From the NCBI GenBank assembly GCA_000165345.1, contig CM000431.1, forward strand, positions 1,024,001-1,088,000: a stretch of DNA of 64,000 nt, given 5' to 3'. Made by a program: the position numbers. Positions 54,001 through 57,000 of the stretch are shown piece after piece. The stretch's first letter is position 1; the number at the start of each line of letters is the position of its first letter.

Positions 54001-57000
54001 GAAAGGATAGATCTTCAGGAAATAAATTTGGTGGAAGACTTATTGTAATTGAGATGGATGACTTTGAAATGTTTGTTGAATAAATGGGAAAATAAAATAT
54101 ATTTTGGTAGTCTTTTAGATAGTCCTGATGAATTATCTTATTATATTTCTTTGACCTTAAGTTCTGGATTGCATCCACAAGCCTAATTGGTATATCTTGT
54201 TCTTGAATGCCAACAAAATAATTTTCACCTTCCTTCATTCTAAAAAATTTATAATCTGGATCACAAATTTCGAACTTATTCATTGCTGTATAAGGGTTAA
54301 CTGAGTTAGCAAAATATGAAATAAAAAATGGATGAATATTTTTAATGATATATTCTGTACGAGTAAAGTTTGAAATCATGATTTCACTATTATTAAAACC
54401 TCCTTCAAATAAAATACTGTAATCGAATCCTTTTGAGTTATCTATGCTTTTTAAGTAGTCTTTGGAAGAAAAAGAGTGAATATTATTTATTAAGTATTGT
54501 TTCTGACAAAATACGCATAAAGTTGTATTCACTTTTTTTGTTTGGTTAATTATTGAGTCGTTAGTTGAATTATTAGTTATTTTTGTGTTATTAACCATGT
54601 TTTCGTTGGGGGGTTCATTAAAATAATCTTGTTCATTCGTTTTAAATGTTGTGATTATAAGCATATTTCCGGGCTTTAAATTTGATAAAATTTTATAATG
54701 AAGTTCTAAATTATATTCGGTATATATCGAACGTGCAGAGAGGACTTTTTCTGGAGGGCATTTGAGTATGTTGAATGCATCTTGTATATTCTTACATTCA
54801 TCATATATAAAACTATTTGCACTATGTTTAAACCTTTTCATTTTAAGAGTTTTAGCTTGGTTGTATAACTCTAATTTTGGTTTGCTGTTCCTCATCATTT
54901 CAAATACCGAAAAAATACCTTGAATTATATGAATGATACTAAGCTCTCCCAAGTTCTGTAAATTAATATCTATTATTAAGCTGTAATATCCGAATATTGA
55001 ATTTGATAAGTAAATCTTCATTTCAGTAACCAATTCATGTTTATAAAAGTAATAATAAAGACTGCCTTTTCGTTTACTTGAAATATACATTGAGAAGAAA
55101 AACATCGGTTTTGAACTAAGTTTTATTTTTGATATATTATTTAACGGGAATATCAATTTCAGTAAAGAAGATCTTCGAGGGGAATTAAAAACTAAAATCT
55201 TCCCAATAGAATCATAAAGAGGATGTTTTATTCCAGATTCCGGAAGTCTTAACCTTGTAATAATATTAGAGTCACCTCTTCTAATCTTATTAAAGTATTT
55301 TCTTACAATTGAGGTTTGCTCATCCAATGTTTTATTTGATAAAATTGTAAGAGTCATTCTATCAGCACGATAATATTGATTAAAAAATTCCCGTAATAAC
55401 CGTTTTGATTTAAATTTGTCCAGATGGTGAAGTTGCATATATTCTAACAAATTCCAATCATAACTACTATTATCTGTCTTAGTTGGTGAGGAAATCTCTT
55501 GTAATATATCTGAAAGTCTAAAACTATCAAAATTTATATTATTAGCTAAGTTATTTACAAGTTTAGCAAAAATTTCTTCATGTATATTATCATTTGTATT
55601 TAGGTTTATAAACATATTTGCAAAAATTTTCAGTGCAATTTCAAATTCATTTGAGAGGATATCAAAATCAAATCTTGAATTGTCTCTACTAATACTTGCT
55701 CTATAACTGCATTTATGTTTCTTGATTAACAAAGCAAATTGCCTCGTAAATTTTTTCTTTAATGATCCAAATAATAATGTATAAAGAAGGTATCTAGATA
55801 GGCCAGGAATATTTTCTGGATCAGAAGCAAATCCAAAATCTAAGTTCATGCTGCCAAATGATATTTCTGTTGTCTTATCATAAACCATAAATACTTTCAA
55901 AGAGTTAGATAGCCTTAAATATCTATATTCCCTAGTACATCCAATTGGTTTTTCAAATGATTGATCATCAATCATTTCTTCCACCTGTTTGCACTTTTTT
56001 TCTGAATACATTATTTTAATTAAATCATCGTTCGAATCATTGAAATATTTTGAATTATTTTTATAAATGCTTCTTTTATCATTGATTCTATGTTTCCTTC
56101 TATCGTTTCTAACAAAAGAATTTCTTTTATTTCTTTGATTTTTTTTAGCTTTATTTTGAATAAAAGCATACTCTTGCTTTTCAAACGTGAAGCAAATATT
56201 ACAGCAAAGGATAATGGTAAAAATTAAAAAGCATGATGTTAGATACCAATACCTTTTAATCATGTTTTTATCTGCATTAATAAATGTAATTATTAACGCT
56301 CCAATGTTGAGTTTGACGGTACTTTTTGGAGTAAAAAGTGATTATTTGACCATTTTGTTGGCGCCATACAAACTGCCTTTTATCAATATTTTTTGTAAAA
56401 AAATAAATTTTAGATAAAGAAGATAAAATAATAATTCAGTGCAAATAAAATGTAATTTTAAAGTTTTTAACAATTGGCGTATTCAATTCACAAGAAAATT
56501 TTGTTTAATAGCAACATATGGAGGAGAGTCATATAATAATCAAAATAAATACAGAAATATTTATCAAACATAATTCTAAAGAAGTCTTACTGGTGAGTCT
56601 CAATATTAAAGCTCTAGATATGGTCTTAAATAATTTTTAAAAAAAAAAAGGACTTGGCGCCAGTTTGCTAGTAATAACATGGGATAAGTTCAAAATTTTA
56701 TTGTGGGGAATTTTGTTGCTATAGTTTGCAATTTAAAGGCTGGCAATAAATATTTTGAAGGTTTCTTCTAATGATGAGGGATAGAAACCTTACAAATGCT
56801 CAAGGAGCACTTTCAGAAATAAGAAAAATCAGGGAAGGAAAAATTAAGGCAAGCGATGCTTATACACTGAAGGATAATGACATTTTTGAGGAAGTTGACG
56901 AGGAGGAGTACCAAAATATTATCAAAGAAAGGAGATCTGGAAATTTTGTTGTAGATGACAATGGAATTGGATATGAGGATGATGGGAGGGATTTGATGGA

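What the first reader, a model, noticed from the sequence alone, without database searches (positions are those of the whole stretch)
56264..56770. Paired palindromic TTGGCGCCA E2F-like boxes in the DNA polymerase alpha promoter, and the same element family upstream of most genes in the window.
GC-rich GGCGC(C) boxes stand out in the 75 to 80% AT spacers. They recur 40 to 500 bp upstream of the following ATGs:
- 5022 (ATPase);
- 17248, 21294, 26172, 30580, 34786, 40514, 44554 and 52151 (M16 paralogs);
- 56358 and 56654 (shared between paralog 11 and Pol alpha);
- 62153 (tail-anchored gene).

A replication gene having two perfect palindromic copies fits E2F/DP-type cell-cycle control. The presence of the same box on the secreted M16 paralogs suggests co-regulation with the replicative cycle.
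Basis: partly seen in the sequence, partly recalled or inferred. Interest (0 to 1): 0.5.

Follow-up and report, generated by a model that had tools for sequence, protein, structure and literature searches.

The report
Known E2F-like promoter boxes in Cryptosporidium
The GC-rich TTGGCGCCA boxes between genes are real, strongly non-random and conserved across Cryptosporidium species, but they are the already published "E2F" upstream motif of Cryptosporidium parvum, which sits in front of most genes and so does not single out DNA replication.

Summary
The window is Cryptosporidium parvum Iowa II chromosome 3: the insulinase-like (INS) protease array, DNA polymerase alpha (cgd3_4290) and a t-SNARE (cgd3_4300).

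**Observation: confirmed.**
- All 12 listed coordinates hold GGCG-core boxes in intergenic DNA.
- GGCGCC occurs 5 times in spacers and 0 times in coding sequence.
- 11 of 15 promoter-containing spacers carry a strict core, against 1.5 expected. No shuffle reached the observed value.
- GGCGCC, TTGGCG and TGGCGCCA are the top-ranked spacer k-mers.
- Orthologous spacers from nine other Cryptosporidium lineages keep the boxes at the same distance from the start codons.

**Identity: already known.** TGGCGCCA is the published "E2F" motif. It is the most over-represented upstream motif in C. parvum and is enriched in open chromatin, but no binding has ever been shown.

**Interpretation: partly supported.**
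- The two boxes are better read as one per divergent gene: 95 bp from the INS start codon and 117 bp from the Pol alpha start codon.
- Published expression data put the box-bearing genes of this window into different expression clusters. The motif therefore does not indicate co-regulation with replication.

**In passing.** An invariant TGTGGGGAA G-box at 56702-56710 is the best-conserved element of the Pol alpha promoter.

The parts
56358..56366 (.). Box 1, TTGGCGCCA (palindromic core TGGCGCCA). It lies 95 bp upstream of the start codon of INS paralog M16_11 (minus strand) and 413 bp from the Pol alpha start codon.
   Evidence: Exact match. GGCGCC at the equivalent position in 7 lineages of the intestinal clade: 102-112 bp from the M16_11 start codon in the six species listed, and at the equivalent spacer position in C. 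felis. C. xiaoi and C. ryanae instead have a GGCGG-type site at -37 and -42.
56654..56662 (.). Box 2, TTGGCGCCA, 117 bp upstream of the Pol alpha start codon.
   Evidence: Exact match. A GGCGC(C) core sits 108-130 bp upstream of the Pol alpha start codon in all 9 other lineages, including gastric C. andersoni. It is the second most conserved 9-mer of the aligned spacer: mean identity 0.86 against 0.55 overall.
56702..56710 (+). G-box TGTGGGGAA, about 69 bp upstream of the Pol alpha start codon and 40 bp downstream of box 2.
   Evidence: GTGGGGA is invariant in all 9 aligned species and is the most conserved 9-mer of the spacer. It matches the published G-box G[T/C]GGGG bound by ApiAP2 domains and the 'G-rich motif upstream of all DNA replication genes' of PMC1779779.
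56264..56770 (.). Divergent 507-bp spacer between M16_11 (cgd3_4280 by numbering, not checked) and DNA polymerase alpha (cgd3_4290).
   Evidence: ORF map, Pfam, exact protein matches to C. parvum Iowa II EAK88942/3, gene ID.
56771..61237 (+). DNA polymerase alpha catalytic subunit, cgd3_4290.
   Evidence: Pfam DNA_pol_B, DNA_pol_alpha_N and zf-DNA_Pol. Exact match to EAK88942.1. Gene ID in the supplement of PMC3734150.
52529..56263 (-). Secreted insulinase-like peptidase (M16_11).
   Evidence: Pfam Peptidase_M16 domains. Exact match to EAK88943.1, 'secreted insulinase like peptidase, signal peptide'.
40514..40522 (.). TTGGCGCCA box 154 bp upstream of the M16_7 start codon.
5022..5029 (.). GGCGCCAA box 232 bp upstream of the P-type ATPase start codon. 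A second CGCCAA half-site lies at 5056.
21294..21301 (.). GGCGCCAA box 228 bp upstream of the M16_3 start codon. Further GGCGG/CCGCC sites lie at 21223 and 21521.
17248..17254 (.). TGGCGGG variant 154 bp upstream of the M16_2 start codon.
   Evidence: It matches published E2F-like motif 4, GGCGGG.
26173..26180 (.). CCCGCCAA variant (reverse complement TTGGCGGG) 377 bp upstream of the M16_4 start codon.
30580..30588 (.). TTCCGCCAA variant 489 bp upstream of the M16_5 start codon.
34786..34795 (.). GCGCCAAAAA (reverse complement TTTTTGGCGC) 205 bp upstream of the M16_6 start codon.
44554..44561 (.). GGCGCGCG variant 64 bp upstream of the M16_8 start codon.
52150..52155 (.). GGCGCT variant 41 bp upstream of the M16_10 (INS-16, cgd3_4270) start codon.
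   Evidence: A GGCGC/GGCGG site lies at -45 to -76 in 5 other species.
62153..62162 (.). TTTTGGCGCT box 63 bp upstream of the t-SNARE (cgd3_4300) start codon and 13-17 bp beyond the kinase stop codon.
   Evidence: A box at the equivalent position in 7 of 8 other species.
7638..7644 (.). TTGGCGA half-site 79 bp upstream of the RRM gene start codon.
7970..7976 (.). TTGGCGA half-site 150 bp upstream of the zinc-knuckle gene start codon.

Best explanation
The boxes are instances of the published Cryptosporidium parvum 'E2F' upstream motif (TGGCGCCA, with the looser forms [A/T][C/G]GCGC[G/C][A/T] and GGCGGG). They are selected, promoter-proximal cis-elements, typically one or a few per transcription unit, placed about 40-500 bp upstream of the start codon.

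The most likely binder is the parasite's E2F/DP winged-helix heterodimer. The two subunits would each contact one half of the symmetric GGCGCC core, and the T-rich and A-rich flanks complete the site. Binding would mark or open the promoter.

In the M16_11/Pol alpha spacer there are two separate promoters pointing away from each other, each with its own box. The Pol alpha promoter also has an invariant G-box about 40 bp downstream of its box. Because the box precedes most genes, it behaves as a general promoter element. Timing of expression would be set by other elements, such as the G-box or ApiAP2 sites.

Shown here: non-randomness, restriction to spacers, and conservation in position.
Taken from the literature: enrichment in open chromatin, and the presence of E2F and DP genes.
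Inferred: binding by E2F/DP, and the assignment of one box to each gene.
For: **Restriction to spacers and excess over shuffles.**

**Top-ranked k-mers.**

**Site-specific consensus.** GGCG half-sites in spacers give the consensus TTGGCGCCA. GGCG sites in coding sequence lack the C at +4: 2 of 33 against 14 of 27.

**Same pattern across the genus.** Spacers hold 1.76 sites per kb and coding sequence 0.28 per kb across 10 loci.

**Positional conservation.** Boxes keep their position in orthologous promoters of M16_10, M16_11, Pol alpha, the SNARE, the kinase and orf202.

**Little in convergent spacers.** Only 1 hit in 2079 bp.

**Not a duplication relic.** Spacers of the INS paralogs share no detectable homology, so the boxes are not simply copied along with the genes.

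**Literature.**
- TGGCGCCA is named as the E2F motif and the most over-represented upstream motif (PMC3734150). It is found upstream of 161 of 200 expression clusters (PMC4117751).
- Two E2F and two DP genes are retained in C. parvum.
Against: - No experiment has shown that any Cryptosporidium protein binds this motif. The 2025 review says most regulatory components lack functional validation.
- Transcription start sites are not available here, so the position of a box relative to the transcript is unknown.
- A palindrome in a divergent spacer cannot be formally assigned to one gene, and each box could serve both.
- Three genes here have no box: M16_1, orf558 and M16_9.
- Several listed sites are weak variants (GGCGCT, TTGGCGA) that might not bind.
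Confidence: 0.8

Rival explanations
1. Both palindromic boxes act together on DNA polymerase alpha as classical cell-cycle (G1/S) E2F control, and the INS protease genes carry the same box because they are co-regulated with the replicative cycle.
For: - Pol alpha is a classical E2F target in animals and plants (established knowledge).
- Its published expression cluster 69 also holds a DNA polymerase epsilon subunit and a flap endonuclease, and is flagged E2F-like.
- E2F and DP transcripts are highest in early asexual stages.
Against: - Each box keeps a tight distance to its own start codon while the distance between boxes drifts from 263 to 336 bp.
- C. andersoni Pol alpha has one strict-core box in 1.3 kb upstream.
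- The box precedes 12-14 of 17 genes of unrelated function.
- Box-bearing genes of this window lie in five different expression clusters.
- Clusters with the E2F motif peak at any time point.
- No Rb-family orthologue is recorded in apicomplexans.
Confidence: 0.12
2. The box is a real promoter element, but something other than E2F/DP binds it. Candidates are another DNA-binding protein, or a role as a nucleosome-excluding GC island in very AT-rich DNA.
For: - Binding has never been shown.
- The motif is near-ubiquitous, which is unusual for a specific factor.
- E2F expression profiles do not track the ribosomal protein genes that carry the motif.
Against: - The consensus TTGGCGCCA(A) matches the canonical E2F/DP site, a CG core flanked by T and A.
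- The published figure of protein-binding-microarray results does not list this motif among those bound by C. parvum ApiAP2 domains. It is set aside there as a motif of a known non-AP2 factor.
- The reported co-occurrence of the motif with retained E2F/DP genes only in this genus argues for the pairing.
- Base-by-base conservation of the palindrome, and not just of GC content, argues for sequence-specific recognition.
Confidence: 0.12
3. The recurrence upstream of the INS paralogs is only a relic of tandem duplication, in which promoters were copied together with the genes, or is a compositional accident.
For: The INS genes are a tandem array. M16_9 and M16_10 are recent duplicates with 83% protein identity.
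Against: - Spacers share no significant similarity beyond short AT-rich runs.
- The other paralogs are at most 33% identical.
- The one recent duplicate pair does not share the box: M16_9 has none.
- Non-INS genes carry the box too.
- No shuffle out of 1000-2000 reaches the observed counts.
- Orthologous positions are conserved across species.
Confidence: 0.02

Closest known systems
Cryptosporidium parvum 'E2F' upstream motif. Noted on chromosome 6 by Bankier et al. 2003, as cited in PMC3734150; CGCCAA core in Mullapudi et al. 2007, PMC1779779; motifs 3 and 4 in Oberstaller et al. 2013, PMC3734150; ATAC-seq in Xiao et al. 2025, bioRxiv 10.1101/2025.01.17.633476.
   Same: - Same organism and the same sequence: 5'-TGGCGCCA-3', with [C/G]GCGC[G/C] and GGCGGG variants.
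- Same restriction to upstream non-coding DNA.
- Same near-ubiquity.
- The genes of this window are already in published clusters flagged E2F-like.
   Different: Nothing essential. New here are locus-level details that I did not find in the papers read:
- conservation of box position in ten Cryptosporidium lineages;
- one box per gene in the divergent spacer;
- pairing with an invariant G-box.
Canonical animal and plant E2F/DP binding site, TTTSGCGCSAAA. An example is the overlapping inverted sites of the mammalian DHFR promoter (my own knowledge). The structural basis is in Zheng et al. 1999, as cited in PMC3734150.
   Same: - Symmetric GC core flanked by T on one side and A on the other.
- Found upstream of a DNA polymerase alpha gene.
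- E2F and DP proteins are encoded by the genome (literature).
   Different: - In Cryptosporidium the site precedes most genes rather than a G1/S regulon.
- No Rb-family partner is known.
- Target genes peak at any stage.
- Binding is unproven.
Apicomplexan G-box (G[T/C]GGGG) bound by ApiAP2 domains such as cgd8_810.
   Same: The invariant TGTGGGGAA at 56702-56710 fits this motif. Mullapudi et al. reported a G-rich motif upstream of all C. parvum DNA replication genes tested.
   Different: It is not enriched in the window as a whole: 3 GTGGGGA against 1.5 expected.

Membership tests
Published C. parvum E2F-like upstream motif (Oberstaller motifs 3 and 4) | Sequence 5'-TGGCGCCA-3' / [A/T][C/G]GCGC[G/C][A/T], or GGCGGG | tested here: met
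   Three exact TTGGCGCCA and five GGCGCC. The half-site consensus in spacers is TTGGCGCCA. GGCGGG variants lie at 17248 and 26173.
Published C. parvum E2F-like upstream motif (Oberstaller motifs 3 and 4) | Over-representation in upstream non-coding DNA relative to background | tested here: met
   Density is 20- to 45-fold higher in spacers than in coding sequence. No shuffle out of 2000 reaches the observed counts. 11 of 15 spacers carry a core against 1.5 expected. The motif k-mers rank first.
Published C. parvum E2F-like upstream motif (Oberstaller motifs 3 and 4) | Organism is Cryptosporidium parvum, and the genes belong to clusters flagged for the motif | tested here: met
   Exact protein matches to C. 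parvum Iowa II. cgd3_4260, 4270, 4290, 4300 and 4180 are in clusters 10, 62, 69, 118 and 18, all marked in an E2F-like column of Table S4.
Published C. parvum E2F-like upstream motif (Oberstaller motifs 3 and 4) | Location inside ATAC-seq open-chromatin peaks at 5' ends of transcripts | not testable with these tools
The preprint text does not mention these genes.
Functional E2F/DP binding site | Match to the canonical site, a CG core flanked by T-rich and A-rich sequence (TTTSGCGCSAAA) | tested here: met
   Box contexts are gTTGGCGCCAt and cTTGGCGCCAg. Flank frequencies are T at -1 and -2 in 18 of 27 sites and A at +6 in 17 of 27.
Functional E2F/DP binding site | E2F and DP proteins encoded by the same genome | not tested
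   From the literature only: cgd1_1560, cgd6_1430, cgd7_3650 and cgd8_1850. They lie outside the window.
Functional E2F/DP binding site | Direct binding of E2F/DP in vitro or in vivo | not testable with these tools
   No such experiment was found in the library. The review states that functional validation is lacking.
Functional E2F/DP binding site | Purifying selection on the site, seen as a phylogenetic footprint | tested here: met
   Box 2 is present in all 10 lineages at -108 to -130. It is the second most conserved 9-mer of the spacer.
Cell-cycle (G1/S) E2F regulon | Motif-bearing genes share replication-linked, periodic expression | tested here: not met
   The test is indirect, from published data. 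Box-bearing genes of this window lie in five different expression clusters. Clusters with the E2F motif peak at any of seven time points. INS-15 and INS-16 peak at 0-2 h.
Cell-cycle (G1/S) E2F regulon | Motif discriminates replication genes from other genes | tested here: not met
   12-14 of 17 genes of unrelated function carry it: ATPase, proteases, SNARE and RNA-binding proteins.

The most novel reading that the evidence does not exclude
The pattern of which genes have a box may map transcription units. The three genes with no GGCG core upstream sit behind three of the four shortest head-to-tail spacers that follow another gene on the same strand, apart from the 79-bp SNARE spacer:
- M16_9 / INS-15, 181-bp spacer;
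- orf558, 307-bp spacer;
- M16_1, 351-bp spacer.

These genes could be the downstream cistrons of the polycistronic transcripts recently reported in C. parvum. The pairs would be INS-16 with INS-15, M16_7 with orf558, and M16_2 with M16_1. More broadly, the fixed distance of one box to each start codon across gastric and intestinal species would make E2F/DP the general promoter-defining factor of the genus rather than a cell-cycle regulator.
Probability: 0.25. Interest if true: 0.35.

Novelty: already known. Interest (0 to 1): 0.15.

Why it matters
The motif matters for Cryptosporidium biology. It is the most abundant candidate regulatory element in a major diarrhoeal pathogen, and it is reported to be tied to a transcription-factor family (E2F/DP) that other apicomplexans have lost. 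That point has been in the literature since 2003-2013 and was reinforced by chromatin-accessibility data in 2025.

This locus adds a clean, small test bed. The 507-bp divergent spacer has two perfectly conserved boxes and one invariant G-box. It is suitable for reporter mutagenesis and for the binding experiments that are still missing.

Tried and rejected
1. **Chance or base composition.** Rejected by shuffles of the whole window and of the spacers alone.
2. **Promoters copied along with the tandemly duplicated INS genes.** Rejected. An all-against-all blastn of the spacers finds only short AT-rich matches. The one recent duplicate pair does not share the box.
3. **Listing of these genes as polycistrons, or as having ATAC peaks, in the 2025 preprint.** Searched for; nothing found in the text.
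4. **Experimental proof of E2F binding in Cryptosporidium from 2024 on.** Searched for; none found.
5. **The kinase ORF at 62170-63948 looked truncated next to its 754-769-residue orthologues.** Translation shows the frame stays open to the window end, so the gene simply runs off the window.
6. **The forward qPCR primer published for cgd3_4270 matches both INS-15 and INS-16 exactly.** The reverse primer has two mismatches to INS-15, including the 3' base, so the assay is probably specific.
7. **Checking the DNA-contact residues of the Cryptosporidium E2F/DP proteins.** Not attempted. Those genes are outside the window, and the contig collections searched by the search for related loci hold viral, metagenome and prokaryotic DNA rather than annotated eukaryotic genomes.
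Full report
**What the window is.**
The Pol alpha protein (56771-61237, plus strand), the neighbouring insulinase-like peptidase (52529-56263, minus strand) and the 222-residue tail-anchored protein (61422-62090, minus strand) are exact matches to Cryptosporidium parvum Iowa II proteins EAK88942, EAK88943 and EAK88941.

Published primers for cgd3_4270 (INS-16) match at 51005-51211 and 52028-52049. The supplement of PMC3734150 names cgd3_4290 as the DNA polymerase alpha catalytic subunit and cgd3_4300 as the possible t-SNARE. 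The window is therefore the chromosome 3 INS array.

Gene content:
- a P-type ATPase, an RRM protein and a zinc-knuckle protein;
- eleven M16 paralogs plus one fragment-like ORF, all on the minus strand;
- Pol alpha, the SNARE, and a kinase that runs off the window end.

**Checking the observation.**
TTGGCGCCA occurs exactly three times (40514, 56358, 56654) against 0.05 expected. GGCGCC occurs five times, all in spacers, which make up 12% of the window. About half are variants or half-sites rather than the full palindrome.

Further tests:
- **Shuffles of the spacers alone.** This controls for their low GC and their CpG content. GGCGC gives 14 observed against 0.87 expected, TGGCGS gives 13 against 0.65, and GGCGCC gives 5 against 0.07. 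None of 2000 shuffles reached the observed value.
- **Density.** GGCGC and TGGCGS occur at 1.7-1.9 per kb in spacers against 0.04 per kb in coding sequence.
- **Coverage.** Eleven of fifteen promoter-containing spacers hold a strict core (GGCGC or GGCGG), against 1.5 in shuffles (0 of 1000). Neither convergent spacer does.
- **Unbiased k-mer ranking.** GGCGCC, TTGGCG, TGGCGC, GGCGCCA and TGGCGCCA come first at k = 6, 7 and 8.
- **Consensus.** GGCG sites in spacers have the consensus TTGGCGCCA. GGCG sites in coding sequence are followed by A or T.

**Conservation.**
I fetched the orthologous locus from C. meleagridis (two assemblies), chipmunk genotype I, C. ubiquitum, C. canis, C. felis, C. 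xiaoi, C. ryanae, C. andersoni and an unnamed lineage from a sequencing run.

- The excess in spacers holds in every species. Pooled, spacers hold 1.76 sites per kb and coding sequence 0.28 per kb.
- Box 2 is present 108-130 bp upstream of the Pol alpha start codon in all of them, including the distant gastric species C. andersoni.
- Box 1 is present in seven intestinal-clade lineages: 102-112 bp from the INS start codon in the six listed, and at the equivalent spacer position in C. felis. C. xiaoi and C. ryanae instead have a GGCGG-type site at -37 and -42.
- In the nine-species alignment, box 2 is the second most conserved 9-mer: 0.86 mean identity against 0.55 overall.
- Boxes are likewise kept in position upstream of the orthologues of INS-16, the SNARE, the kinase and a 202-residue ORF (TTGGCGGGAAT at -251 to -276).
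- Convergent spacers across species hold one hit in 2079 bp.
- The INS spacers share no detectable homology with each other, so the boxes are not a duplication relic.

**What it is.**
The motif is already described.
- Oberstaller et al. 2013 list 'E2F (5'-TGGCGCCA-3')' first among the most over-represented upstream motifs of C. parvum. They define motif 3 as [C/G]GCGC[G/C] and motif 4 as GGCGGG. They note that Bankier et al. 2003 had already seen the motif on chromosome 6.
- Mullapudi et al. 2007 found a CGCCAA-core motif upstream of early-peaking replication genes.
- The motif is upstream of 161 of 200 expression clusters.
- In 2025 it was reported as the dominant motif in ATAC-seq open-chromatin peaks, more than half of which are bidirectional promoters.
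- Cryptosporidium is reported as the only apicomplexan genus to keep E2F and DP genes.
- No binding experiment exists.

**How it most likely works.**
The symmetric GGCGCC core with T and A flanks fits the canonical E2F/DP site, in which each subunit contacts one half of the core. This is established knowledge, cited.

The best-supported reading has three parts:
- The box is a general promoter-proximal element.
- It is presumably bound by E2F/DP.
- There is roughly one box per transcription unit.

Restriction to spacers, selection and positional conservation are shown here. Open chromatin and the existence of the factors come from the literature. Binding is inferred.

*Two boxes for Pol alpha.* The two boxes are better assigned one to each divergent gene.
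- Each box keeps its distance to its own start codon within about 20 bp across species, while the distance between the boxes varies from 263 to 336 bp.
- C. andersoni Pol alpha has a single strict-core box in 1.3 kb upstream.
- The RRM/zinc-knuckle divergent spacer shows the same layout, with two half-sites 79 and 150 bp from their respective start codons.

*Co-regulation with replication.* Sharing the box does not imply it.
- The box precedes 12-14 of 17 unrelated genes.
- cgd3_4260, cgd3_4270, cgd3_4290, cgd3_4300 and cgd3_4180 fall into five different published expression clusters, each flagged E2F-like.
- Clusters carrying the E2F motif peak at any time point.
- INS-15 and INS-16 peak at 0-2 h, the invasion phase.

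**Verdict.**
This is a correct and careful observation of a real, functional-looking element, and it is a rediscovery. Novelty: already known. Interest is low.

The locus-level details are modest additions that I did not see in the papers read: positional conservation across the genus, one box per divergent gene, and the invariant G-box next to box 2. The most novel reading not excluded is that the three box-less genes behind short spacers are downstream cistrons of polycistronic transcripts.

Noticed in passing
window 56702-56710 (+): TGTGGGGAA is the most conserved 9-mer of the M16_11/Pol alpha spacer. GTGGGGA is invariant in all nine aligned Cryptosporidium species. It lies about 69 bp upstream of the Pol alpha start codon and 40 bp downstream of box 2. 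It fits the published ApiAP2 G-box and the G-rich motif reported upstream of all C. parvum replication genes tested. It is a better candidate than the E2F box for replication-specific control.
   Followed up: partly
window 56667-56686 (+): A conserved block, GCTAGTAAT..AACATGGGAT, lies between box 2 and the G-box and is shared by the intestinal-clade species. It might be a transcription start region or another factor site.
   Followed up: no
window 13138-13488, 36721-37027, 48398-48578: The three genes with no GGCG core upstream (M16_1, orf558, M16_9/INS-15) sit behind short head-to-tail spacers of 351, 307 and 181 bp, each following another INS gene on the same strand. They could be co-transcribed with the upstream gene, given the polycistronic transcripts reported in C. 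parvum.
   Followed up: partly
window 7638-7644 and 7970-7976: The RRM/zinc-knuckle divergent spacer has two TTGGCGA half-sites, one 79 bp from the RRM start codon and one 150 bp from the zinc-knuckle start codon. This is the same one-per-gene layout as at Pol alpha.
   Followed up: partly
window 44879-48397 and 48579-52109 (-): M16_9 (INS-15, cgd3_4260) and M16_10 (INS-16, cgd3_4270) are recent duplicates with 83% protein identity, whereas all other paralog pairs are at most 33% identical. Their upstream spacers are unrelated and only INS-16 has a box. The published forward qPCR primer for cgd3_4270 matches both genes exactly. The reverse primer has two mismatches to INS-15.
   Followed up: yes
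window 62091-62169: The whole spacer between the kinase stop codon and the t-SNARE start codon is 79 bp. It still holds a conserved TTTTGGCGCT box 13-17 bp beyond the kinase stop codon. The SNARE promoter must therefore overlap the kinase 3' end.
   Followed up: partly
L002-L005, L010 (upstream of the 202-residue ORF, about -251 to -276): An 11-mer, TTGGCGGGAAT, is identical in four of the five intestinal-clade species, with one mismatch in C. ubiquitum, and keeps nearly the same distance from the start codon. It is a clear example of the GGCGGG variant under selection.
   Followed up: no
spacers of the window in general: TGTGGG/CCCACA is the next most enriched spacer 6-mer family after the E2F-like k-mers: 6 observed against 0.57 expected. 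This is consistent with G-box-like elements in several spacers.
   Followed up: no
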